Under the pieces are notes generated by a model that was not told where the DNA came from, did no database searches, and was given only the letters and a program-made list of their open reading frames with translations. The translations under genes were made by a program, and so were the position numbers. Of a stretch of 64,000 nt of DNA, positions 1 to 10,283 are shown one piece after another. The stretch comes from an uncultured Chloroflexia bacterium (GTDB lineage Bacteria > Chloroflexota > Anaerolineae > CG2-30-64-16). Every line of letters begins with the position of its first letter. The stretch's first letter is position 1. The stretch covers positions 64,001-128,000 of the forward strand of contig CAWEMM010000009.1 in assembly GCA_963810095.1 (NCBI GenBank). Direction: 5' to 3'.

Positions 1-672
1 ATCGCGGGCTGGGAGGACTACCCGGTTCAGGGCGGCGGCTCGGAACCGTTCCTGATTTATAAGGACCTGCGTGGGCAGGAGCAAGCGATGATCGACCTGG
101 TAGAACACCCCGAGATCGTCCATTACTGCCTGGACAAGCTGTTCGACCTGGCCTATGTGAACACCGAACGGATCCTGGAGACGATACCGGGTAAAGTAAC
201 GTATTGCTACGTGGCAGAAGACATGGGCGGGCAAAGCAACTTGATGTTTTCAAAGAAGCACATCCGCACGTTCCTCCTCCCGCGCATGAAGCGCATGATC
301 GACCTCGCACACGACGGCGGCGCTTACGTCTTCCACCACAACGACGGCAACTGCCGGGCGATCCTCCCCGATCTGGTCGATGCCGGGATAGACGTTCTGA
401 ACCCGATACAATGGCGATGCCAGGGGATGGACCGCGCGACACTAAAGGCTGATTTCGGCTCCAAGCTCGTCTTTCACGGTGCAGTGGACAATCAGCAGAC
501 CCTGCCGTTTGGCACAGCGGAACAGGTGCGCCAGGAAGTGGCGGACAATTTGCGGGTCCTGGGCAGTGGCGGCGGCTATATTCTCGCGCCGTGTCACAAC
601 ATCCAGCCGGTGACCCCGCCCGAGAATGTTGTCGCGATGTACGAAGCGGGGTACGAGCTTGGCTGGATGTGA
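1..672 (+). CDS. Uroporphyrinogen decarboxylase (URO-D/MtaA)-fold protein, 5'-partial
   Basis: Frame open from base 1; motifs AEDMGGQ, HHNDG, DVLNPIQ, FHGAVDNQ, GGYILAPCHNIQ. Confidence 0.85.
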   Translation: MAGWEDYPVQGGGSEPFLIYKDLRGQEQAMIDLVEHPEIVHYCLDKLFDLAYVNTERILETIPGKVTYCYVAEDMGGQSNLMFSKKHIRTFLLPRMKRMIDLAHDGGAYVFHHNDGNCRAILPDLVDAGIDVLNPIQWRCQGMDRATLKADFGSKLVFHGAVDNQQTLPFGTAEQVRQEVADNLRVLGSGGGYILAPCHNIQPVTPPENVVAMYEAGYELGWM

Positions 673-683
673 GAAGGATAGAG

Positions 684-2921
684 ATGCACGACTACAACCT
701 GAGATGGCATGAGCAGAGCCGCCATTCCGGCGAGTCCATGCCGTTGGGCGGTCATAGCATCGGCTGTAACGTGTGGGCCGAGAACAGCGAGCTCTTGCTG
801 TACTTCCAGCAATCCGGCTGCTTTGACGAGAACGGTTCCATGCTCAAGGGCGGCCGGCTCCGCATTGCGTTCGACTCCAACCCTTTTGCCGGCGGCTTCC
901 TGCAGGAGCTCATTCTCCAGGACGGTCACATCCGCATCGAGGGTCGAAGCGACCGGGGAAACATTAGCATCGTACTCTGGGTTGACGTGCGGTTGCCCGT
1001 GGTCCATATCGACCTGTCTGCCGAGTACGCTCTATCCATGCGGGTGCAGTATGAGACTTGGCGTGACGAGGACCGGCGTGTCGACAATCACTCCTACGAG
1101 CTGTTCCAGTGCAAAGAGGTCTGGGGCGATCCGGACAAGCCGGTGATCTTCCACAGGGACCAGATCGAGGTGATCGGACCGGGCGAGCTCCTCTTTTATC
1201 ACCGGAACCTGGATGACGACCTGTCGTTCGACCGGGAGATGGACACCCAGGGTCTCGGAGAACATAAGGCAAGCCTGTACAATCCGCAACGGGGCTTGAC
1301 CACAGGTGGCTTGCTGAAGGCGCCCGAAATGTACTTCGCAGGCATGGTGCGGGGCACATCCGTCGATACGCGTTATCTTGCGTATGCCTTCGAATCGGTC
1401 TCGCCGTCAGCCGAGCAGAGCATCGCGATCTATCTGCTCGCCGAGCAGGCCAGCACGCTCGAGGAATGGCGTGAGCACCTGAACTCGATTGTGGCAAGCA
1501 GTGACGCGACGAGCCAGACGGCTTTCGAGGACTCGCGCGCCTGGTGGCGGGAGTATTGGGAGCGCAGCTTCATCCGCATCAGGCCTGACGAGGCGCAAGC
1601 AGACGACCGGCTCTGGCAAATTGGCCGAAACTACCAGCTGTTTCGCTACCTGATGGGCTGCAACGACGCTGCCATCTGGCCGACCAAGTTCAATGGCGGC
1701 TTGTTCACGTTTGATCCCATCCTCGCGGGTAAGAGCCCGTGGTCGGACATCGAGCTACACTACACCCCGGACTACCGCCTCTGGGGCGGTGGCTCACACA
1801 CGGCCCAGAACCAGCGTCTGCTCTACTGGCCGATGCTCAAGAGCGGGGATTTTGCCCCCATGCGCCAGCTTTTCGACTTCTACAATCGGACGCTCAAGAC
1901 TGCGCAAACGCGCGCCAGGGTATTCTTCGGGGTGGACGGCGCGATCTATCCCGAACAGATCGGCATCTACGGCCTATGTCCGACCTGCGACCACGGCTGG
2001 GGCAACGAAACCGGCCTGCCCGTCGCGCAGATCCGCTATCACTTCTCGACCGCGCTCGAAATCAGCCTGATGATCCTGGACTACGCCGACTACACGGGAG
2101 AGGACGTTGCGGAGTACGTGGAATTCATGGACAGCGTCGTGAAGTTCTACGATGGGTTCTACCCTCGTGACGACGATCGGGGCCAGATGGTGATCGAGCC
2201 GGGCAACGCACTCGAAACGTACCATCCCGTCCGGAATCCCGTCGACGCCGTGGCCGGCCTCGAGTGCGTACTGCGCCGCCTGCTCCTGCTGTCCTCAGAG
2301 GCTATCTCGCCAGAGCGGAGGCAGAACTGGCAGCGTATAATGCGACGCGTTCCGACCCTCTCGTTCCGTGAGAAAGACGGGCGCAAGATCATCGCGTATG
2401 CCGAAACCTCGTCACCGCTGCACAACTGCGAGGTCCCCGAGTTGTACACGGTCTTTCCATTCGGCCAGTTCGGGCTCGGGAAGCCTGACCTACAGGTAGC
2501 CAGGGACACAGCGCGCTTTGCACCGGAGACGGGCGAGCAGCTCACCCATATCAGTTGGCACCAGCAAGGCATCCAATACGCCCGCCTCGGGATGCTTCCC
2601 GAGGCCATGGAGTTCCTATTCCGCAAGCTCGGCGACGCCGAGCAGCGGACTCCCGCGTTCTGGGGGCCGGGCCATGACTGGACGCCGGATCACAACTGGG
2701 GCGGCTCGGGCATGATCCAGCTTCAGGACATGCTGCTGCAGGCCGAGGGGGACAAGATCTATTTGTTCCCATGTTGGGATAAGAGGATCGACGTGTGGTT
2801 CCGGCTCCGGGCCCCAGGGAATACCATCGTCGAGTGCCGGCTGAAGGGAGGCGCCGTCGCGCAGTTGACGGTGACGCCTCGGGAACGACTGTCGGATGTG
2901 GATATCCTGCCGGAGCAATAG
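684..2921 (+). CDS. DUF5703-like / GH95-like (alpha/alpha)6 glycoside hydrolase
   Basis: ATG 684 after AAGGA; ESMPLGGHSIGCNVW, RNYQLFRYLMGCN, PTKFNGGLF, DYRLWGGG, PAFWGPGHDWTPDHNWGGSG. Confidence 0.7.
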   Translation: MHDYNLRWHEQSRHSGESMPLGGHSIGCNVWAENSELLLYFQQSGCFDENGSMLKGGRLRIAFDSNPFAGGFLQELILQDGHIRIEGRSDRGNISIVLWVDVRLPVVHIDLSAEYALSMRVQYETWRDEDRRVDNHSYELFQCKEVWGDPDKPVIFHRDQIEVIGPGELLFYHRNLDDDLSFDREMDTQGLGEHKASLYNPQRGLTTGGLLKAPEMYFAGMVRGTSVDTRYLAYAFESVSPSAEQSIAIYLLAEQASTLEEWREHLNSIVASSDATSQTAFEDSRAWWREYWERSFIRIRPDEAQADDRLWQIGRNYQLFRYLMGCNDAAIWPTKFNGGLFTFDPILAGKSPWSDIELHYTPDYRLWGGGSHTAQNQRLLYWPMLKSGDFAPMRQLFDFYNRTLKTAQTRARVFFGVDGAIYPEQIGIYGLCPTCDHGWGNETGLPVAQIRYHFSTALEISLMILDYADYTGEDVAEYVEFMDSVVKFYDGFYPRDDDRGQMVIEPGNALETYHPVRNPVDAVAGLECVLRRLLLLSSEAISPERRQNWQRIMRRVPTLSFREKDGRKIIAYAETSSPLHNCEVPELYTVFPFGQFGLGKPDLQVARDTARFAPETGEQLTHISWHQQGIQYARLGMLPEAMEFLFRKLGDAEQRTPAFWGPGHDWTPDHNWGGSGMIQLQDMLLQAEGDKIYLFPCWDKRIDVWFRLRAPGNTIVECRLKGGAVAQLTVTPRERLSDVDILPEQ

Positions 2922-3258: not shown

Positions 3259-3390
3259 AGCGGAACAATCCCCCTGGAAATCCGTCCGGGTCCCGCGCTT
3301 GTCCACGGGTGCATCCGCTGCAACGGCAACGATGGTGCGCGTATGGCGGCGTCTGGAAAAGGTTCGACCGCTGTGCAAGGAGGTGGGCGA

Positions 3391-4065
3391 ATGGAGCCAT
3401 TGAAACCAGCTTCCTGGGAAGAGTTTCTGCGCAAGACCACCGTCGTGATTGGGCGACTGGGCTTGGCTTTGCTTTTCCTCTCGTCGTTATCCTGGAAGAT
3501 GCCTCCGCGCTACGGCTGCGGGCCCGGCCCGGGGTTCGCGTTCACCACGGCTGCGGCGGATGGCACCCTGATCCGGACGAGTGGCTTGTGCGACTGGATC
3601 GGTATCGAATCTGTCTACGCACAGCGCCCCCGCAAGTTCACTGCATCCTCTGATCAAGGCGGCGACGGCCTCCTCGCTGCGCCGGTTGGCCTGCTCCTCA
3701 GGCTGAACGGGGCGTTCGTGGACGGCATCGTCAAGCCCAACTTCAGTTGGTTCGGCTCGGTGATCTTCCTGGCCGAAGCTTGGATCGCCCTGAGCCTGGG
3801 CTTGGGCTTGTTCACGCGGCTGGGCGCGTTGGTGGCGCTCGGCATGTCCGCCCAACTGGCCCTGGGGATCGGCGGCGTCTCAGATCCGGCCACTCAACTT
3901 CAAGAATGGGTTTGGAGTTATCTCCTGATGGCGCTGCTGGCGCTTGTGCTCCTGGGCGCAGCGCCGGGCCGCGCGCTGGGGGTCGATGCCTGGCTGCGCC
4001 CCAGGCTCGCGGCAGCCCAGGAACGCGGGAGCCGGTTGGCCAGGGTACTGCTGGCACTCACATGA
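3391..4065 (+). CDS. DoxX / TQO small subunit (DoxD)-like membrane protein
   Basis: AGGAGG RBS; several TM segments, SLGLGLFTRLGALV, EWVWSY, GRALGVDAWL; Cys pair in the extracytoplasmic loop. Confidence 0.7.
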   Translation: MEPLKPASWEEFLRKTTVVIGRLGLALLFLSSLSWKMPPRYGCGPGPGFAFTTAAADGTLIRTSGLCDWIGIESVYAQRPRKFTASSDQGGDGLLAAPVGLLLRLNGAFVDGIVKPNFSWFGSVIFLAEAWIALSLGLGLFTRLGALVALGMSAQLALGIGGVSDPATQLQEWVWSYLLMALLALVLLGAAPGRALGVDAWLRPRLAAAQERGSRLARVLLALT

Positions 4066-4129: not shown

Positions 4130-4986
4130 GTGACTGAACGGAGAGAATGCATGGGGTTGCCAGATGTCGGAGGGGCGCCGAACGACCAGAGCAGCAGTGC
4201 CGCGGCCTTTCCCTGGAAGCTGTGGCTCTACACGAACTACGACTGTAACCTGAGCTGCAGCTATTGTCTCTCCGAGTCGAGCCCGCGTGCCGCTCGCCGC
4301 GGGCTGGATCTGGCGACGGTGCGGCAGGCCATGGACGAGGCCGTCGCGCTGGGGTTCGAACACGTCTTCCTGACGGGCGGCGAGCCGTTTCTTCTGGACG
4401 ACGTCTATGCGATGTTGGCCTATGCGTCGGCCCACTTGCCGACAACCGTCCTGACCAACGGCTGCTCTCTTGCGGGGCAGGCGGCTGGCGCGGCTCTGCG
4501 CGATTGCCAATCCCAACCTGACGATCCAGGTGAGCCTGGACGGCGCGCGACCCGAACACCACGACCCCTATGCGCGGGCCGGGAGCTTGGGCCGCAGCGG
4601 TTGAGGGCATCCAACTGCTTCGTGAGCACGGCTTTCACGTCCGCATCGGTACCACGGAGACGCCCGTCAACGCCGCGCACCTCGACGAGCTGGCAGCGTT
4701 CCTCTCCTCCCTCGGCATCGCCGAAGAAGATCATATCAGCCGGCCGGTGGCACGTCGCGGCTTCGCCGCGTCAGGGCTGGAAGTCGGCATCGATACCCTG
4801 ACACCCGAGCTAACCCTGACCGCGGTGGGGGTTTTCTGGCATCCCCTGGCTTCGCCCTCCAGTGCGGACATGCTGATCTGCCCGCAGATCTTTCCCCTCG
4901 CAAGGGCGGTCGCACGCGTCCGGCAGGAACTCCTGACACTGGCTCAAGCTGGCAAGGATCAGCTGAAGACCGTCACCTGAGGCTAA
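4130..4986 (+). CDS. Radical SAM protein, frameshifted near 4465 and 4570; candidate C-terminal selenocysteine (..KTVT-U-G*)
   Basis: CNLSCSYC (CxxxCxxC), LTGGEP, VLTNG, QVSLDG..HD.RGPG. TGA 4978-4980 then GGC TAA; ends at 4980 if TGA is a true stop. Confidence 0.8.
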
Positions 4987-5017
4987 CGCACGGCTTCCGG
5001 TGGAAGCCAGGGTGAGC
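4981..5017 (+). promoter_or_regulatory. Putative bacterial SECIS element
   Basis: GGCTTCC-GGT-GGAAGCC (4992-5008) starts 11 nt after the TGA, with a G-led apical loop and no U-tract; weak lower stem 4982-4987/5012-5017. Confidence 0.6.
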
Positions 5018-5103
5018 AGCGGGAGCAACGGGCCGTGGGACGCACGATCCTGCTTGGGTTTCCGGTGGGCGTAGCGTCGTGTGGAAGCGGGTGCTGTGCA
5101 AAC

Positions 5104-5778
5104 ATGAGTGGCGCGCTCCTGGTGATGGCCAAGCGGCCGGCGGCCGGTACGACGAAGACGCGGCTGACCCCCGCGCTCTCGGCAGAACAGGCCGCGGCGC
5201 TTTACGAGTGCTTTCTGCGGGATGTTCTCGACATTGCACGTGCCGTACCCGCCGTGACGCGTACCATCGCCTATCCGCCTGCCGACGGGCAGCACTACTT
5301 CCGGCAACTGGCCGCTGATTTCGAGCTGGCGCCGCAGGTCGGCGCAACGTTAGGGCAGCGCCTGGCTCATGTCCTGGGCGAGAGCCTCGGCCGCGGCCGG
5401 ACGCCGGCCGTCGCGCTGAGCAGCGATAGCCCGACCCTGCCGGTCGAACACGTGCGACGGGCCTTCACCTGGCTGGCCGAGGGCGATGTAGACGTGGTGC
5501 TCGGCCCGTGCGCAGACGGTGGGTACTATCTGATTGGCGTGACCGTCCCCCGACCGCACCTGCTGCTCGCCGTGGAGATGTCAACCCCGCGAGTCCTGGC
5601 CGACACACTGGCCCTGGCTGCCGAGGGTGGGCTGAAAGTGGGGTTGTTGCCGGCCTGGTACGATGTGGATACGGTTGCAGACCTCGCATGCCTGCGAGCG
5701 GACCTGGCCGCGCTGCCCCCTGCCGTCGCCCGGCACACCCGCAGTCTGCTGGCAGCCGACCCGACGCTTCCCCGGTGA
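5104..5778 (+). CDS. DUF2064 / TIGR04282-like GT-A transferase (rSAM/selenodomain-associated transferase 1 type)
   Basis: MAKRPAAGTTKTRL, QVGATLGQRL, SDSPTLP, VVLGPCADGGYYLIG, WYDVDT. Confidence 0.85.
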   Translation: MSGALLVMAKRPAAGTTKTRLTPALSAEQAAALYECFLRDVLDIARAVPAVTRTIAYPPADGQHYFRQLAADFELAPQVGATLGQRLAHVLGESLGRGRTPAVALSSDSPTLPVEHVRRAFTWLAEGDVDVVLGPCADGGYYLIGVTVPRPHLLLAVEMSTPRVLADTLALAAEGGLKVGLLPAWYDVDTVADLACLRADLAALPPAVARHTRSLLAADPTLPR

Positions 5779-5782
5779 TGAG

Positions 5783-6466
5783 ATGCAAATTGCCGTGATT
5801 ATCCCCGCCCTGAACGAAGCCGGCAACATCGCTGACCTGGTGCGGGAGACTCTCGCTCAGGGGGTGGTTGACGTAATCGTCGCCGACAATGGTTCGACGG
5901 ATGGCACTGCCCCGGCCGCGCAGAAGGCGGGCGCGCGGGTGGTCACCGAGCCCCGTCGCGGCTACGGGTATGCCTGTGCCGCTGGAGCCGCCGCAACGAC
6001 TGCCGACGTGTTGGTCTTTCTCGACGGCGACTACAGCTCCCTGCCGGCTGAACTAGACCGGCTGTTAGCGCCCCTGCGCGACGGTGAGGCGGACCTGGTG
6101 TTGGGCTCCCGAACCTTGGGCCAAATCGCGCCTGGCGCCATGCCGTCGCACCAACGCTTCGGCAACTGGCTGATGGCGCGCGCCATGCGCTGGCTTTATG
6201 GCGTGCCCGTGACCGATCTGGGACCTTATCGGGCCATTACGTGGGCGCTGCTGACCGGATTGGACATGCGTGAAATGACTTTCGGTTGGCCGGTCGAGAT
6301 GATGGTCAAGGCGGCTCGCCACCATGCGCGGATCGTCGAGGTGCCGGTCAGCCACGCGCCGCGGCGTTCCGGCCGGTCCAAGGTCGGTGGCAGCGTGCGC
6401 GGCTCCGTTCTTGCCGCCTACTACATTGTGACAGTCATCCTGCGTTACGCGTTTACCCGCCCCTGA
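5783..6466 (+). CDS. Glycosyltransferase family 2 (DPM-synthase-like)
   Basis: VIIPALNEAGNI, VADNGSTDGT, RRGYGYAC, FLDGDYS, TDLGPYRAI, SKVGGS. Confidence 0.9.
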   Translation: MQIAVIIPALNEAGNIADLVRETLAQGVVDVIVADNGSTDGTAPAAQKAGARVVTEPRRGYGYACAAGAAATTADVLVFLDGDYSSLPAELDRLLAPLRDGEADLVLGSRTLGQIAPGAMPSHQRFGNWLMARAMRWLYGVPVTDLGPYRAITWALLTGLDMREMTFGWPVEMMVKAARHHARIVEVPVSHAPRRSGRSKVGGSVRGSVLAAYYIVTVILRYAFTRP

Positions 6467-6683: not shown

Positions 6684-7784
6684 ATGGAAGCGATTGCAGT
6701 TGTGCCTGGTACGAAAGACGTGCGGCTGGTCGACCGCCCCGAGCCGTCTGTTCGGGCGGATGACGAAATCAAGGTGCAGATCTGCCGGGTGGGCATCTGC
6801 GGGACGGACCGGGAGGAGGCCGCCGGCGGTCGCTCCAAGGCGCCCCCCGGCCAGAAGGACCTGGTGATCGGGCACGAGAACTTCGGGCGGGTGGTGGAGA
6901 CCGGGAAGGCGGTCACACGCGTCAGGCCCGGCGACTATGCCGTGTTCACCGTCCGCCGCAGTTGCGGCAAGTGCCTGCCGTGTCGCATGGGTCGCTCGGA
7001 CATGTGCCTGACGGGCGACTATACGGAGCGCGGCATTTGGGGGGCGGACGGCTACCAGGCGCAGTTCGTGGTTGACAAAGAGGAGTACGTCGTCTGCGTC
7101 CCCGCAGAGCTGGAGCCGGTCGGCGTACTGACCGAGCCGCTCAGCATTGGCGAAAAGGCCATTCAGGAGGCGGTGCGGGTGCAGATGGCCCGCCGCCCCG
7201 ACTCGCTCGCCACGCCCGAATGGCTCTTCGGACGGCGTTGCCTGGTCGCGGGGCTCGGCCCCGTTGGCTTGCTTGCGGCGCTCGCGTTGCGCTTGCGGGG
7301 CGCCGAGGTTTGGGGGCTCGATATCGTGGACGAGAGTTCGGCGCGGCCCCAGTGGCTAAAGGCCATCGGCGGTCAGTACGTGGACGGTCGCCAGGTCAAG
7401 GCGGACCAGGTGGACGACAAGCTCGGCCCGATGGAGTTCATCTTCGAAGCAACCGGCATCGCCTCCCTGGAGTTCGACTTGCTCGATGCGCTCGGCGAGG
7501 GCGGCGCGTATGTCCTCACCGGTATCCCCGGCGGCGATCGCCCGTCGCAGGTTCAGGCGGCCAGCCTGATGCGGGAGTTCGTCCTGGCGAACAAGCTCAT
7601 GCTCGGCAGCGTGAATGCGGCGGCGGGTCACTTCCAGATGGCGGTGGACGACCTGGCGCAGGCCCGGCTCAAGTGGGGCGACCACGTCGCCACGCTGATT
7701 ACCGATCGTGTGCCGCACGCTAAGTTCCAGGAAGCGTTGGACAGGCACAATCAGGATGAGATCAAGGTGGTGGTGGAGTGGTGA
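6684..7784 (+). CDS. Zn-dependent glucose 1-dehydrogenase (MDR family)
   Basis: VGICGTD, GHE, FTVRRSCGKCLPC, ERGI.GADG, GLGPVG, GSVNA. Confidence 0.85.
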   Translation: MEAIAVVPGTKDVRLVDRPEPSVRADDEIKVQICRVGICGTDREEAAGGRSKAPPGQKDLVIGHENFGRVVETGKAVTRVRPGDYAVFTVRRSCGKCLPCRMGRSDMCLTGDYTERGIWGADGYQAQFVVDKEEYVVCVPAELEPVGVLTEPLSIGEKAIQEAVRVQMARRPDSLATPEWLFGRRCLVAGLGPVGLLAALALRLRGAEVWGLDIVDESSARPQWLKAIGGQYVDGRQVKADQVDDKLGPMEFIFEATGIASLEFDLLDALGEGGAYVLTGIPGGDRPSQVQAASLMREFVLANKLMLGSVNAAAGHFQMAVDDLAQARLKWGDHVATLITDRVPHAKFQEALDRHNQDEIKVVVEW

Positions 7785-7792
7785 GGTGATTC

Positions 7793-10283
7793 ATGTCTGA
7801 CAACCAGCCAACCCAGGCCCCCGGCCACCCCGGCATCGAGGCCCGCTGGACCTCCAGTGCCAAGACGGGCGTTGGCACCGCGCTGGGCAACGCATCTCGC
7901 ATCTGGTTCACGCTCGGCCACGGCATCATCGACGAGGTCTATTACAGCCGCATCGACTGGGCCTGCACGCGCGACATGGGGCTGCTCGTTTCGGACGGCC
8001 AAGGCTGGGTGTCCGAAGAGAAGCGGCACGCGAAGCACGAGGTCGCGTACCCCTACGCCGGCATCCCCTATTACCGGCTCACCAATACCGACCAGGGTGG
8101 CCGCTACCGGATCGAGAAGGAGATCCTGGCCGATCCGCAGCGCGACGTGATCCTGCAGCGCACGCGCTTCGTGCCGCTGCAGGGCAAGCTCGAGGACTAC
8201 CACCTGTACTTGATCCTTGCCCCGCACCTGGGCAACCAGGGCGCCGGCAACACGGCCTGGACTGGCGACACGAAGGGCGAGCAAATGCTGTTTGCAGAGC
8301 GTGACGGCACCTCGCTTGCGCTCGCCTCCTCCGCCCCCTGGCTGAGGCGCTCGGCCGGTTTCGTCGGCACGTCGGACGGATGGCAGGACATCACACAGCA
8401 CGGCGAGATGAAGTGGGAGTACGCCCGGGCCGACGACGGCAACGTTGCACTCACCGGCGAAATCGACCTCGGGGCCTGCGCCCTGGCCGGCAGCGGGGAG
8501 ACGGGTGGAGGGGTGGAGTTCACCCTTGCGCTCGGCCTGAGCCGCACCGCGCTTGAGGCCGGTCACCACGCGCGCACCGCGCTCTTCGACGGCTTTGACC
8601 GCGCTCGCGATGTCTATGTCGGGCAGTGGCAGCGCTGGCAGGACGGCCTGCTTGCGCTGGAGGACGAGGAAGTCAGAGACGCTACCTCGGGACACGCGCA
8701 GCCCGAGCTTCCTCCAATCGACGAGTTCCGCACCAGCGCGATGGTGCTGCGCGTGCACGAGGACAAGGTCTTTGCGGGCGGCATGATCGCCAGCCTTTCG
8801 ATCCCGTGGGGGTACGCGAAGGGCGACGACGACCTCGGCGGCTACCACCTGGTGTGGACGCGCGACCTGGTGGAGAGCGTCGGCGGGTTGATTGCCGCGG
8901 GCGCGCATGGCGATGCCGCACGTGTGCTGCGCTACCTGCAGGCCACGCAGGAGGCGGACGGCCACTGGCCGCAGAACATGTGGCTCGACGGCACACCCTA
9001 CTGGCATGGCATCCAGATGGACGAGACCGCGTTCCCCATCCTGCTGACGGAGACTGCCTACCGCCTGGGCGTGCTGGACGAGGCGCTGCTCGACAGCTTC
9101 TGGCCGATGGTGCACACGGCCGCGGCGTACGTCGCAGCGAACGGGCCGGTCAGCAAGGAGGACCGCTGGGAGGAGAACGCCGGCTACTCGCCCTTCACGC
9201 TGGCCGTCGAGATCGCGGGCCTGTTGGCTGCCGCCTCACTGGCCGAGACGACCGGTAAGTCGACCGCCGCGCAGTACCTGCGGGAGACGGCGGACAACTG
9301 GAATGCCAACATCGAGCGCTGGACCTACGTGACGGGGACCGCACTGGCGGAGAAGCACGGGGTGGAGGGATATTACGTCCGCATCGCGCCGCCGGATGTG
9401 GGCGAAGGGGCGTCGCTGAAGGACGGTTACGTGCCGATCAAGAACCGGCCGCCGGGGGAGAGCAAGGTGCGGGCCGTGCAGATCGTTAGCCCCGACGCGC
9501 TTGCACTCGTGCGCTTCGGCCTGCGCCGCGCCCGACGACCCGCGCATTCTGAACACGGTCAAGTTGATCGACGCGACGCTCAAGACCGACACGCCGTTCG
9601 GGCCGGTATGGCACCGGTACACAGGCGATGGCTACGGCGACCACGGGGACGGCGGGCCGTTCGACGGCACGGGTGTGGGCCGAGGCTGGCCGCTGCTGGT
9701 GGGCGAGCGCGCGCACTATGAGCTGGCAGCCGGGCGCTTCGACGAGGCGGAGCGGCTGATGCGCGTGATGGAAGCGCTGGCGAACGAGGGCGGCATGATC
9801 CCCGAGCAGACCTGGGACGCGGCCGACATCCCCGAGGAAGAGCTGTTCTTCGGCAAGCCGGCGGGAAGCGCTATGCCGCTCGTGTGGGCGCACGCCGAGT
9901 ACCTCAAGCTGCGGCGTTCGCTCCGCGAGCGTCGAGTCATCGACATGCCGCCCCAGCCCGCCAACCGCTACCTCACCGGCGACGACCGGCATACGGGCAC
10001 GCCCTTCACCCTCTGGCGCTTCAACCATCGCTCGCGCGTCCTTCAGCAGGGCAACCTCCTGCGGGTCGAGACACGGTCGCCCGCGCTGGTTCACTGGAGC
10101 GTGGATGGCTGGCAGAACGTGCAGGAGTGCGCGACGACGGACACGCAAGTGGGGATGCACGTGGCGGACCTGCCGACGCAGGAGCTTGAAGAGGGGGCGC
10201 AGGTGACTTTTACCTTCCGCTGGCCGGCCGAAGGCGACCGGTGGGAGGGGACGAACTATGAGGTGCGGGTCGTTAAGGCCTGA
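7793..10283 (+). CDS. Glucoamylase/glucodextranase, GH15 (frameshift near 9528)
   Basis: APGHPGIEARWTSSAKTGVG, GGYHLVWTRD, QMDETAFP, DRWEE, GRGWPLLVGER, SAMPLVWAHAEY. Confidence 0.9.

What the first reader, a model, noticed from the sequence alone, without database searches (positions are those of the whole stretch)
4130..5017. Radical SAM enzyme with a probable penultimate selenocysteine (..KTVT-U-G-stop) and a SECIS-like hairpin
Seen: the apparent stop TGA (4978-4980) is followed by GGC TAA. Exactly 11 nt after it lies a 17-nt hairpin, GGCTTCC-GGT-GGAAGCC, with a G-led loop and no U-tract, in the middle of an operon. Known: the minimal E. coli fdhF SECIS is a 17-nt stem-loop 11 nt after the UGA; Sec-Gly-stop tails occur in selenoenzymes such as mammalian thioredoxin reductase; the downstream transferase family is associated with rSAM/selenodomain loci. 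Inference: UGA is recoded, giving a flexible Sec tail that gene callers would miss. I recall related short radical SAM proteins ending in Cys-X, but could not verify this.
Basis: partly seen in the sequence, partly recalled or inferred. Interest (0 to 1): 0.85.

Follow-up and report, generated by a model that had tools for sequence, protein, structure and literature searches.

The report
Radical SAM enzyme with selenocysteine tail
This gene encodes a radical SAM enzyme whose apparent TGA stop almost certainly codes for selenocysteine, followed by one glycine and the true stop, so databases cut the last two residues off this Chloroflexota protein family.

Summary
TGA lies at 4978-4980 and is followed by GGC TAA. 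A perfect 7-bp hairpin with a GGT loop sits at 4992-5008, 11 nt after the TGA. The gene is not one open frame in the window: it has two +1 frame breaks, near 4463-4466 and at 4572. These are probably assembly indels, because rpoB, rpoC and selA of the same assembly are also frame-broken.

Comparison with relatives strongly supports selenocysteine (Sec) recoding.
- Of 86 related Chloroflexota loci that reach the C-terminus, 82 read TGA, then 1-2 codons, then a stop. The codon after TGA is GGN in 75.
- The other 4 loci carry Cys exactly at that position (..TCG, ..RCA, ..DCGVAE).
- True Rv1681-family proteins end ..CA or ..CG.
- The hairpin lies 10-16 nt after the TGA. All 7 of its pairs show compensatory changes, and it has an invariant loop G.
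- The genome has selA, selB, selD (itself with an in-frame TGA) and tRNA-Sec.

The protein is a short relative of the Rv1681/MoeX family that scores below the NCBIfam cut-off. Apart from the CX3CX2C motif, the tail residue is its only conserved Cys/Sec. A 2026 inventory of 119 prokaryotic selenoprotein families does not list it.

Verdict: a real and apparently undescribed selenoprotein family. Its function is inferred: a mobile Sec arm of a radical SAM enzyme linked to sulfur-relay and nucleotide-sugar genes.

The parts
4151..4986 (+). Radical SAM (short Rv1681-like) selenoprotein gene: ATG 4151 to the true stop TAA 4984-4986. The intact product is expected to be about 277 aa, ending ..KTVT-U-G. 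In the window it lies in three frame segments.
   Evidence: three frames against P0001. NF049973 matches of 116.6, 18.8 and 121 bits for the three pieces..
4244..4267 (+). CX3CX2C motif (C-NLS-C-SY-C) that binds the radical SAM [4Fe-4S] cluster.
   Evidence: translation. Pfam Radical_SAM match. These are the only conserved Cys columns in alignments A1 and A3.
4463..4466 (+). First frame break (+1). Four bases stand where homologues have one codon (Met in P0001).
   Evidence: A variant-strain contig of run X1 has a net -1 here and reads in frame.
4572..4572 (+). Second frame break (+1), inside the conserved HDxYRGxG stretch.
   Evidence: An X1 contig lacks this base.
4978..4980 (+). TGA read as selenocysteine, the penultimate residue.
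   Evidence: 82 of 86 loci have TGA, 4 of 86 have Cys; the Cys at profile position 325 of 326 aligns here.
4981..4986 (+). GGC (the final Gly) and TAA (the true stop).
   Evidence: The codon after TGA is GGN in 75 of 82 TGA-form loci, and all four Gly codons are used. Tails are UG* in 71 of 80.
4992..5008 (+). SECIS-like hairpin with a 7-bp stem and a GGT loop. It lies wholly after the true stop, in the 117-nt spacer before the next gene.
   Evidence: Covariation. Spacing.
3343..4065 (+). DoxD/DoxX-like membrane protein, a conserved neighbour.
   Evidence: Pfam DoxD 26 bits. Homologues occur in 44 of 81 loci.
5104..5778 (+). TIGR04282 / DUF2064 nucleotidyl-transferase-like gene. The ORF is open from GTG 5035; ATG 5104 fits where the family match begins.
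   Evidence: (168 bits, cut-off 134). Homologues occur in 52 of 81 loci.
5663..6466 (+). Family 2 glycosyltransferase. The domain starts at residue 43 of this ORF, so the real start is probably later.
   Evidence: Homologues occur in 32 of 81 loci.

Best explanation
The gene at 4151-4986 encodes a roughly 277-aa radical SAM enzyme of a short, Chloroflexota-wide sister group of the Rv1681 (MoeX) family. Its UGA at 4978 is not a stop. SelB carrying Sec-tRNA(Sec) binds the hairpin at 4992-5008, which sits 11 nt downstream and, unusually, entirely behind the real stop. Selenocysteine is inserted, one glycine follows, and translation ends at UAA 4984.

The product therefore carries a flexible C-terminal arm ending -Thr-Sec-Gly. 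That Sec (Cys in a minority of homologues and in Rv1681 itself) is the only conserved Cys/Sec outside the SAM-cluster motif.

Inferred, not shown: the arm swings into the radical SAM active site as a redox-active, chalcogen-carrying residue. The likeliest role is to accept a persulfide from neighbouring TusA-like and DsrE-like carriers, or to act as the radical-quenching or nucleophilic partner. The substrate is probably a nucleotide-linked sugar-type molecule made or used by the adjacent DUF2064, GT2 and NUDIX genes.

The two frame breaks in the window copy are most likely assembly indels, not gene decay.
For: Shown:

(1) Conserved TGA plus a short in-frame tail. All 8 relatives' loci that reach the C-terminus read TGA GGN stop. 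Of the 80 loci, 79 reach the C-terminus: 75 have TGA and 4 have Cys. Pooled, 82 of 86 have TGA.

(2) The codon after TGA is GGG, GGC, GGA or GGT in 75 of 82, AGY in 6 (tail U-S-K-stop) and GCG in 1. Synonymous variation at a conserved Gly means the codon is translated.

(3) Cys aligns with the TGA: P0079 ..NCG, L108 and L109 ..TCG, L119 ..RCA, and P0111, P0117, P0125 and P0167 ..CA or ..CG. The NF049973 profile runs to position 326, with Cys at position 325.

(4) Hairpin covariation (80 sequences):
- 85.7% of cells are paired, against 70.9 +/- 1.0% in shuffles;
- 7 of 7 pairs have double changes;
- 94 doubly changed cells, against 22.5 +/- 9.5 in shuffles (0 of 500 shuffles reach this) and 6-24 when the partner is slid.
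RNAalifold independently finds the stem. The stem starts 10-16 nt after the TGA, and an invariant G lies 17-23 nt after it.

(5) The four Cys forms fold weakly downstream (-3.9 to -8.9 kcal/mol), against a mean of -12.2 for 79 TGA forms.

(6) Sec machinery is present in the genome: selA, selB, selD with an in-frame TGA in ..SACAG-U-ASK and tRNA-Sec with anticodon tca.

(7) selA was found in 28 of 29 TGA-form genomes tested but in only 1 of 4 Cys-form genomes.

(8) The AF2 model of the L040 orthologue (U read as C) has pLDDT 91.3 and pTM 0.88. The last helix spans 254-270, and the last 12 residues fall to pLDDT 66-71, which indicates a mobile tail.

(9) The only conserved Cys columns are the three of CX3CX2C.

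(10) Neighbourhood in 81 loci: DUF2064 in 52, DoxD/DoxX-like in 44, GT2 in 32, DsrE-like in 29, NUDIX in 24, TusA-like in 22, Rv1679-like acyl-CoA dehydrogenase in 15, DinB-like in 14. Long Rv1681 forms carry a weak TusA-like N-terminal domain in 2 of 4 tested (21-26 bits, below the Pfam cut-off).

(11) Assembly quality: rpoB, rpoC and selA are each split over frames. X1 contigs of a variant strain lack both frame breaks.
Against: - No experimental evidence of Se incorporation exists.
- The window copy cannot be translated as it stands (two frame shifts). No contig of the identical strain bridges either break. The X1 contigs that read in frame differ at 8 and 4 other positions.
- selA is almost universal in this class (57 of 61 relatives). 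Its presence in TGA-form genomes is therefore a necessary condition met, not an enrichment. The contrast rests on only 4 Cys-form genomes.
- One TGA-form genome (G079) showed no selA.
- The loci are related species, so the counts are not independent events. At least 2 of the 8 relatives' loci duplicate loci (78 distinct rows of 80).
- No Rfam SECIS family matches.
- The functional part is inference from gene neighbourhood and fold. TusA-like and DsrE-like genes are absent from the first 10 kb of this window, and the TusA matches are below Pfam's cut-off.
Confidence: 0.88

Rival explanations
1. The family is a selenoprotein family, but this particular copy is a real pseudogene. On this view the two frame shifts are genuine and the gene is decaying in this strain.
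For: The window shows two +1 shifts within 840 bp. selA in the same assembly is also split, which could mean that Sec use is being lost. No contig of the identical strain bridges the breaks.
Against: Essential genes are frame-broken too: rpoB is in at least 2 frames and rpoC is in 3 open frames over 7 pieces. This points to about one indel per kb of assembly error. Apart from the two single-base events, the coding sequence is 85-100% identical in protein to P0001, with no other stops. selD keeps its in-frame TGA and selB is intact. Variant-strain contigs read in frame.
Confidence: 0.1
2. TGA 4978 is an ordinary stop. The hairpin would be an mRNA-stabilising or intercistronic processing/attenuation element, and GGC-TAA is untranslated.
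For: Gene callers in all sources end the protein here. The hairpin lies in an intergenic spacer. A weak terminator-like site follows at 5035-5053.
Against: An untranslated triplet would not stay GGN with a freely varying third base in 75 of 82 loci, nor be followed by an in-frame stop within 1-2 codons in 80 of 80. Cys-Gly or Cys-Ala occupies exactly these positions where TGA is absent. The spacing from the TGA is held to 10-16 nt, with an invariant loop G. There is no T-run. The four Cys forms lack the hairpin.
Confidence: 0.03
3. UGA is read through without selenium, by near-cognate insertion of Trp or Cys stimulated by the hairpin.
For: Stem-loops after stop codons can stimulate read-through in some systems. 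This is general knowledge recalled, not tested here.
Against: The complete Sec machinery is present. The aligned residue in non-TGA homologues is always Cys, the signature of Sec/Cys pairs. The hairpin geometry matches what is recalled of the bacterial SECIS.
Confidence: 0.02

Closest known systems
NCBIfam NF049973, Rv1681 family radical SAM protein (M. tuberculosis Rv1681, 'MoeX')
   Same: It is the best-matching family for all three pieces of the gene and for intact homologues. The radical SAM core and the unique C-terminal half are the same, and the penultimate Cys of the profile (position 325 of 326) aligns with the TGA. Rv1679-like acyl-CoA dehydrogenase genes lie nearby in 15 of 81 loci.
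   Different: Scores are below the curated cut-off of 380 bits: P0001 295, P0079 263, and the window pieces 116.6, 18.8 and 121. The roughly 70-residue N-terminal TusA-like domain of true members (P0111 437 bits, P0117 457 bits) is missing. The tail residue is Sec instead of Cys, and the host phylum is Chloroflexota. The family name carries no '(seleno)' label.
TIGR04167 ArsS, the 'rSAM/selenodomain' arsenosugar radical SAM (seleno)protein
   Same: It is a radical SAM enzyme that can carry Sec toward its C-terminal region and that sits beside TIGR04282 and TIGR04283-type transferases. The window has TIGR04282 next door. It is listed as a selenoprotein with a GxxU motif in Table 1 of PMC13188914.
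   Different: The match is only 24 bits against a cut-off of 300, restricted to the cluster-binding region. There is no DUF3641 Cys-rich domain, and Sec is the penultimate residue rather than part of an internal GxxU motif.
Bacterial selenoproteins with Sec at the extreme C-terminus (KCU-star, UXX-star, SaoC Cys-Cys-COOH type)
   Same: Sec lies within a few residues of the true stop, so the SECIS must lie behind the stop. These families are listed in Table 1 of PMC13188914 and discussed in 10.1101/2022.07.06.499078 (passages).
   Different: Those are small proteins or metal-handling proteins. None is a radical SAM enzyme, and the tail motif here is [TQR]-U-G.
Mammalian thioredoxin reductase tail -Gly-Cys-Sec-Gly (recalled, not from a call)
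   Same: Penultimate Sec followed by Gly on a flexible C-terminal arm that serves an active site elsewhere in the enzyme.
   Different: There is no vicinal Cys before the Sec here (the preceding residue is Thr, Gln or Arg). The SECIS is bacterial and the fold and chemistry are unrelated.
E. coli fdhF SECIS (recalled: minimal 17-nt upper stem-loop 11 nt after the UGA, G/U in the loop)
   Same: A 17-nt hairpin 11 nt after the UGA in the window. Across 80 loci the spacing is 10-16 nt, with an invariant loop G.
   Different: The element lies in untranslated RNA behind the true stop. No bulged U is apparent. It was not tested against bSECISearch, and no Rfam model matches.

Membership tests
Bacterial selenoprotein gene (UGA recoded by SelB/SECIS) | In-frame UGA conserved among orthologues, with the reading frame continuing behind it | tested here: met
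   82 of 86 loci have TGA at the aligned site. Tails are UG* in 71, USK* in 6, UGK* in 2 and UA* in 1 of 80.
Bacterial selenoprotein gene (UGA recoded by SelB/SECIS) | Cys-containing homologues aligned with the UGA | tested here: met
   P0079, L070, L108, L109, L119, and P0111, P0117, P0125 and P0167.
Bacterial selenoprotein gene (UGA recoded by SelB/SECIS) | Stem-loop at a fixed short distance after the UGA, with G in the apical loop, supported by covariation | tested here: met
   Rfam has no matching model, and bSECISearch was not available.
Bacterial selenoprotein gene (UGA recoded by SelB/SECIS) | selA, selB, selD and tRNA-Sec in the same genome | tested here: met
   selA is split over two frames in this assembly, as are rpoB and rpoC.
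Bacterial selenoprotein gene (UGA recoded by SelB/SECIS) | Selenium shown in the protein (75Se labelling or mass spectrometry) | not testable with these tools
   No experiment is possible. No RNA-holding run was listed.
NF049973 Rv1681 family radical SAM protein | Whole-protein score at or above the curated cut-off of 380 bits | tested here: not met
   Window pieces score 116.6, 18.8 and 121 bits. Intact close homologue P0001 scores 295 and P0079 scores 263. True members P0111 and P0117 score 437 and 457.
NF049973 Rv1681 family radical SAM protein | N-terminal domain of about 70 residues (profile positions 1-68) | tested here: not met
   Matches start at profile position 69-72. A separate TusA-like ORF lies nearby in 22 of 81 loci, but not in the first 10 kb of this window.
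NF049973 Rv1681 family radical SAM protein | CX3CX2C cluster motif plus the family-specific C-terminal half ending in a penultimate Cys | tested here: met
   The motif is at 4244-4267. The C-terminal piece matches profile positions 191-314. The penultimate position is held by Sec instead of Cys.
TIGR04167 ArsS (rSAM/selenodomain) | Score at or above 300 bits, with the DUF3641 C-terminal Cys-rich domain | tested here: not met
   24.2 bits over residues 31-101 only. There is no further Pfam domain in the C-terminal piece.
SPASM/twitch radical SAM enzymes | Extra conserved Cys residues that bind auxiliary Fe-S cluster(s) | tested here: not met
   The fold is nearest to SkfB, SuiB, BlsE, anSME and EpeE, and sequence search gives the same neighbours. 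Only the three CX3CX2C Cys columns are conserved in 38 and 66 sequences.

The most novel reading that the evidence does not exclude
The Sec (or Cys) tail may be the last station of a dedicated chalcogen relay: TusA-like and DsrE-like carriers pass sulfur to the Sec-Gly arm, which delivers it to the radical SAM active site. There, sulfur (or even selenium) would be inserted into a nucleotide-activated sugar-like substrate. The product would be an as yet unknown thio- or seleno-metabolite, for example a low-molecular-weight thiol or thiosugar. It would be shared by many Chloroflexota and, in Cys form, by the Rv1679-Rv1681 cluster of mycobacteria. This would be a radical SAM sulfur-insertion strategy that uses a protein-borne selenosulfide instead of a sacrificial auxiliary cluster.
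Probability: 0.15. Interest if true: 0.85.

Novelty: new member of a known kind. Interest (0 to 1): 0.62.

Why it matters
Every database copy I could see ends two residues early. That cuts off what is probably the key catalytic or carrier residue: all 97 hits, apart from the Cys form P0079 and the aberrant P0096, end at the TGA.

Recognising the recoding would do four things.
- It adds a radical SAM family to the selenoproteome. The 2026 inventory lists only two (ArsS-type and TrsS).
- It corrects annotation in at least 80 Chloroflexota species-level genomes.
- It gives a natural set of SECIS elements that lie wholly behind the stop codon.
- It points to the penultimate Cys of the uncharacterised M. 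tuberculosis protein Rv1681 (MoeX) as functionally important.

It also gives enzymologists a natural Sec/Cys pair in a radical SAM enzyme with no auxiliary cluster.

Tried and rejected
- Rfam scan of 4800-5200 at E up to 10 gave only a chance miRNA match (16 bits). No SECIS family matched.
- RNA evidence: no RNA holder was listed among the sequencing runs, so expression could not be assessed.
- Reads: only Logan contigs were available. No contig of the identical strain bridges 4463-4466 or 4572, so reads cannot settle whether the frame breaks are real.
- selA as a discriminator: it is present in 57 of 61 relatives regardless of this gene. I therefore dropped the idea that TGA forms are enriched in Sec-using genomes and kept only the contrast with Cys forms (3 of 4 without selA).
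- ArsS membership: rejected (24 bits).
- SPASM/twitch auxiliary cluster: rejected, because there are no conserved extra Cys.
- Structure: the AF2 tool returns no coordinates, so the distance from the tail to the cluster could not be measured. The tail position is low confidence.

Literature:
- 'Rv1681' with 'radical SAM' found 0 papers.
- 'selenoprotein' with 'Chloroflexota' and 'radical SAM' found 0 papers.
- 'moeX'/'Rv1681' gave only TB-biomarker reviews, seen in the search listing only.
- PMC13188914: I read section 7 part 1 and passages.
- 10.1101/2022.07.06.499078: passages only.
- PMC12013277 and PMC13326102: term searches and passages only. Neither mentions radical SAM in its main text.
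- Haft and Tolstoy 2025 (PMC12013261) is not held, and supplementary tables are closed. Either could list this family, so 'undescribed' holds only for what I could search.

In one search my script first mis-sorted L115-L117 as Cys forms, because a Cys lies four residues upstream of the TGA. They are TGA-GGN-stop forms with hairpins, and I counted them as such. Rows dropped: L102 (runs off the contig), L100 (cut 9 nt after the stop, so absent), L028 (contig ends inside the gene) and L029 (same place as L030).
Full report
**What is in the window**

TGA is at 4978-4980, GGC at 4981-4983 and TAA at 4984-4986. After five more bases comes GGCTTCC-GGT-GGAAGCC at 4992-5008. This is a perfect 7-bp stem with a G-led 3-nt loop, 11 nt after the TGA, with no T-run behind it.

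The stretch 4975-5025 folds at -24.3 kcal/mol (z = -2.77; 1 of 200 shuffles folds as well). The terminator scan does not call this hairpin. It calls a weak site at 5035-5053.

Such hairpins are not rare. Thirty-five perfect 7-bp stems with 3-5 nt loops occur on the + strand of the window, 11 of them with a G-first loop. TGA-GGN-stop occurs twice on that strand. The single-sequence coincidence is therefore suggestive only.

The gene is not one open frame. The ORF list shows 4130-4801 and 4570-4980 in different frames, and the three translations show the protein hopping frames twice. tblastn of the 275-aa homologue P0001 places its residues as follows:
- residues 1-104 in one frame;
- residues 117-140 in a second frame;
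- residues 134-275 in a third frame.

Protein identity within these segments is 94%, 100% and 85%. The likely start is ATG 4151 (MGLPDVGG.., as in P0001). The breaks are +1 events near 4463-4466 and at 4572.

**Are the breaks real?**

The assembly (16 contigs, 6.13 Mb, 88.5% complete) also has frame-split rpoB, rpoC (three open frames over seven pieces) and selA. Essential genes cannot be broken, so the assembly carries roughly one indel per kb.

Logan contigs of run X1 come from a slightly different strain, with 8 and 4 other differences. They show a net -1 at 4462-4466 and a missing base at 4572, which is an intact frame. No contig of the identical strain bridges those sites.

Contigs identical to the window cover TGA-GGC-TAA (X2, 4808-4989) and also the hairpin (X3, 4888-5038). 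Both runs are from one study, which may be the source sample.

I put about 0.85-0.9 on assembly error and about 0.1 on a true pseudogene.

**What the protein is**

All three pieces hit NCBIfam NF049973, 'Rv1681 family radical SAM protein', at 116.6, 18.8 and 121 bits. The last piece covers profile positions 191-314 of 326. Pfam sees only the Radical_SAM domain, in the first piece. The CX3CX2C motif is at 4244-4267.

Intact close homologues score 295 bits (P0001) and 263 bits (P0079), below the curated cut-off of 380. Longer proteins with an extra N-terminal domain pass it: P0111 at 437 and P0117 at 457. The window gene therefore belongs to a short sister group, not to the curated family.

ArsS (TIGR04167), the classical 'rSAM/selenodomain' enzyme, matches at only 24 bits.

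No structure of the family is solved. By profile search the nearest chains are SkfB, the cytosylglucuronate decarboxylase BlsE and AbmM, over the core only.

An AF2 model of the L040 orthologue is confident (pLDDT 91.3, pTM 0.88). It ends in a helix at 254-270 followed by a 12-residue tail whose pLDDT falls to 66-71. Foldseek places it among SkfB, SuiB, BlsE, anSME, EpeE, viperin and MoaA. Only the three Cys of the SAM-cluster motif are conserved in 38- and 66-sequence alignments, so there is no auxiliary cluster.

**The Sec test: protein ends**

Among 97 homologues longer than 238 aa, nearly all annotated proteins stop at one aligned position (..TFT..TVT..SFQ and similar). P0079 runs two residues further and ends ..AYN-C-G.

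Distant members end ..FRCA..FNCA..FVCG..FPCG or ..YRCA(I). Many others again stop just short. In true Rv1681 members the profile's position 325 is that Cys.

**The Sec test: DNA**

In relatives of the window's genome, all 8 loci that reach the C-terminus read TGA GGN stop followed by a hairpin.

A scan of one genome per species found at least 577 relatives. The best 80 are all Chloroflexota MAGs or isolates from Anaerolineae, Chloroflexia, Caldilineae, Thermomicrobiales and one Dehalococcoidia. Of these 80, 79 reach the C-terminus: 75 have TGA and 4 have Cys (L070 ..DCGVAE, L108 and L109 ..TCG, L119 ..RCA).

Pooled with the relatives, 82 of 86 loci have TGA. The next codon is GGG, GGC, GGA or GGT in 75, AGT or AGC in 6 and GCG in 1 (with L115-L117 re-sorted by hand). 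The tails in the 80-row alignment are U-G-stop in 71, U-S-K-stop in 6, U-G-K-stop in 2 and U-A-stop in 1.

A conserved Gly codon with a free third base, followed by an in-frame stop in every case, is what a translated tail looks like. An untranslated trailer would not show this.

**The hairpin**

In the 80-sequence alignment the stem sits in fixed columns. The counts are:
- 85.7% of cells are paired, against 70.9 +/- 1.0% in shuffles;
- all 7 pairs show double changes;
- 94 cells are doubly changed, against 22.5 +/- 9.5 in shuffles (0 of 500 shuffles reach this) and 6-24 when partners are slid by 1-3 columns;
- one pair alternates C-G (37) and U-A (35) with no broken cell.

RNAalifold finds the inner five pairs on its own.

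The stem begins 10-16 nt after the TGA (mode 12). An invariant G lies 17-23 nt after it, mostly within CGUG, CGUU or CGGG.

The four Cys forms have no comparable structure: -3.9 to -8.9 kcal/mol, against a mean of -12.2 for 79 TGA forms.

The sequences are related species and at least two rows are duplicates (78 distinct rows), so these are not independent events. The slid-partner control keeps the relatedness between sequences and still fails to reproduce the signal.

**Machinery**

The genome holds:
- selA (365 + 186 bits, in two frames);
- selB (302 bits, 674-aa open frame);
- selD with an in-frame TGA reading ..SACAG-U-ASK and its own downstream hairpin;
- a tRNA-Sec (72.6 bits; ARAGORN anticodon tca).

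selA was found in 28 of 29 TGA-form genomes tested and in 1 of 4 Cys-form genomes. selA is present in 57 of 61 relatives whether or not they have this gene. Only the Cys-form contrast is therefore informative, and it rests on four genomes.

**How it probably works**

Shown: a conserved UGA, a translated Gly, a true stop, and a covarying stem-loop at SECIS distance that lies entirely in untranslated RNA between this gene and the next (spacer 4987-5103).

Inferred from established bacterial Sec decoding: SelB carrying Sec-tRNA(Sec) docks on the hairpin while the ribosome holds UGA in the A site. Two more steps then finish the chain at -Thr-Sec-Gly.

The role of the tail rests on three facts. It is the only conserved Cys/Sec outside the SAM cluster. 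It sits on a low-confidence (mobile) arm. The neighbourhood is rich in sulfur-carrier and nucleotide-sugar genes. In 81 loci I found:
- DUF2064/TIGR04282 in 52;
- a DoxD/DoxX-like membrane protein in 44;
- GT2 in 32;
- DsrE-like in 29;
- NUDIX in 24;
- TusA-like in 22;
- Rv1679-like acyl-CoA dehydrogenase in 15;
- DinB-like in 14.

Long Rv1681 forms carry a weak TusA-like domain fused at the N-terminus (2 of 4 tested, below Pfam's cut-off).

My preferred mechanism is a swinging Sec arm that carries a persulfide (selenosulfide), or acts as the redox or radical partner, in the active site of an enzyme working on a nucleotide-linked substrate. This is hypothesis, at perhaps 0.4 for 'catalytic or carrier arm' in general and 0.15 for the specific sulfur-relay version. 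This window itself has only the DoxD-like, DUF2064 and GT2 neighbours.

**Comparison with what is known, and novelty**

The kind of system is familiar: bacterial Sec recoding, and even Sec at the extreme C-terminus (the KCU-star, UXX-star and SaoC families in Table 1 of PMC13188914).

That 2026 table of 119 families lists two radical SAM selenoproteins, TIGR04167 (GxxU) and TrsS (NF045646). Neither NF049973 nor any Rv1681-like entry appears. A Haft and Gwadz preprint also mentions a CUAEP-tail radical SAM protein, NF040546 (passage).

NCBIfam release 20 has no model that captures the short clade, and the name of NF049973 has no '(seleno)' label. Word searches found nothing on Rv1681 as a radical SAM selenoprotein.

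I could not read Haft and Tolstoy 2025, any supplementary table, or NCBI's protein names.

Within those limits this is a new selenoprotein family: a new member of a known kind, not a new mechanism.

**Verdict**

It is of moderate to high interest for selenoproteome annotation, radical SAM enzymology and the unexplained Rv1679-Rv1681 cluster.

Noticed in passing
G000 C14:146935-155374 (rpoB, rpoC); G000 C2:182884-184214 (selA): Essential genes of this assembly are split over reading frames: rpoB in 2 frames, rpoC in 3 open frames over 7 pieces, selA in 2. This suggests roughly one indel error per kb. Any ORF-based reading of this window should allow for frame shifts.
   Followed up: partly
G000 C6:1337268-1338194 (locus L019): selD of this genome is itself a selenoprotein gene. 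It has an in-frame TGA at codon 11 of the match (..SACAG-U-ASKLPPEQ..) followed by a stem-loop.
   Followed up: partly
L044 3201-3975, L051 3261-3946, L073 5099-5804, L094 5022-5754 and others: A pair of small genes sits directly beside the radical SAM gene: TusA-like (about 119 aa, in 22 of 81 loci) and DsrE-like (about 119 aa, in 29 of 81 loci). In long Rv1681-type proteins a weak TusA-like domain is fused to the enzyme. DsrE-like proteins are themselves a listed selenoprotein family. I did not check these copies for in-frame TGA.
   Followed up: partly
L051 5212-6943, L062 5126-6799, L088 2258-3394, L083 3444-3965: An Rv1679-like acyl-CoA-dehydrogenase-fold gene (434 bits to NF049984, below its cut-off of 600) lies near the radical SAM gene in 15 of 81 loci, and a DinB-like gene in 14 of 81. 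This echoes the Rv1679-Rv1681 arrangement implied by the NCBIfam names.
   Followed up: no
L067, L085, L090, L097, L099, L113: A sub-clade ends TGA AGY AAR stop (tail U-S-K) instead of U-G, after ..TFQ, ..EFQ or ..TFR, with the hairpin kept. Two loci (L079, L086) end U-G-K and one (L105) ends U-A.
   Followed up: partly
protein P0151 (565 aa): This is a fused form: an N-terminal calcineurin-like phosphoesterase domain plus the same radical SAM enzyme, ending ..PYRCAI. A phosphoesterase is thus another recurrent partner of this enzyme.
   Followed up: no
L051 2236-3333, L062 2458-3957: Some loci carry a second, longer ORF of the same radical SAM cluster directly upstream of the Sec-tailed one. 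This is a possible paralogue pair.
   Followed up: no
window 591-2921, 6684-7784, 7793-9721: The flanking genes look unrelated to the cluster: a DUF5703_N / GH95-like protein (776 aa), a Zn-dependent glucose/alcohol-dehydrogenase-fold protein (366 aa) and a GH15 glucoamylase/glucodextranase-like protein (642 aa; TIGR01535 at 540 bits, below its cut-off of 742).
   Followed up: partly
window 5035-5053: A weak terminator-like stem with a T-rich tail lies inside the spacer or the alternative 5' end of the TIGR04282 ORF. Its meaning is unclear, and two such sites in this region compare with 0.7 +/- 1.0 in shuffles.
   Followed up: no
window 5663-5778: The TIGR04282 ORF and the GT2 ORF overlap by 116 nt as listed. 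The GT2 domain starts only at residue 43, so this is either a later start or another assembly indel.
   Followed up: no
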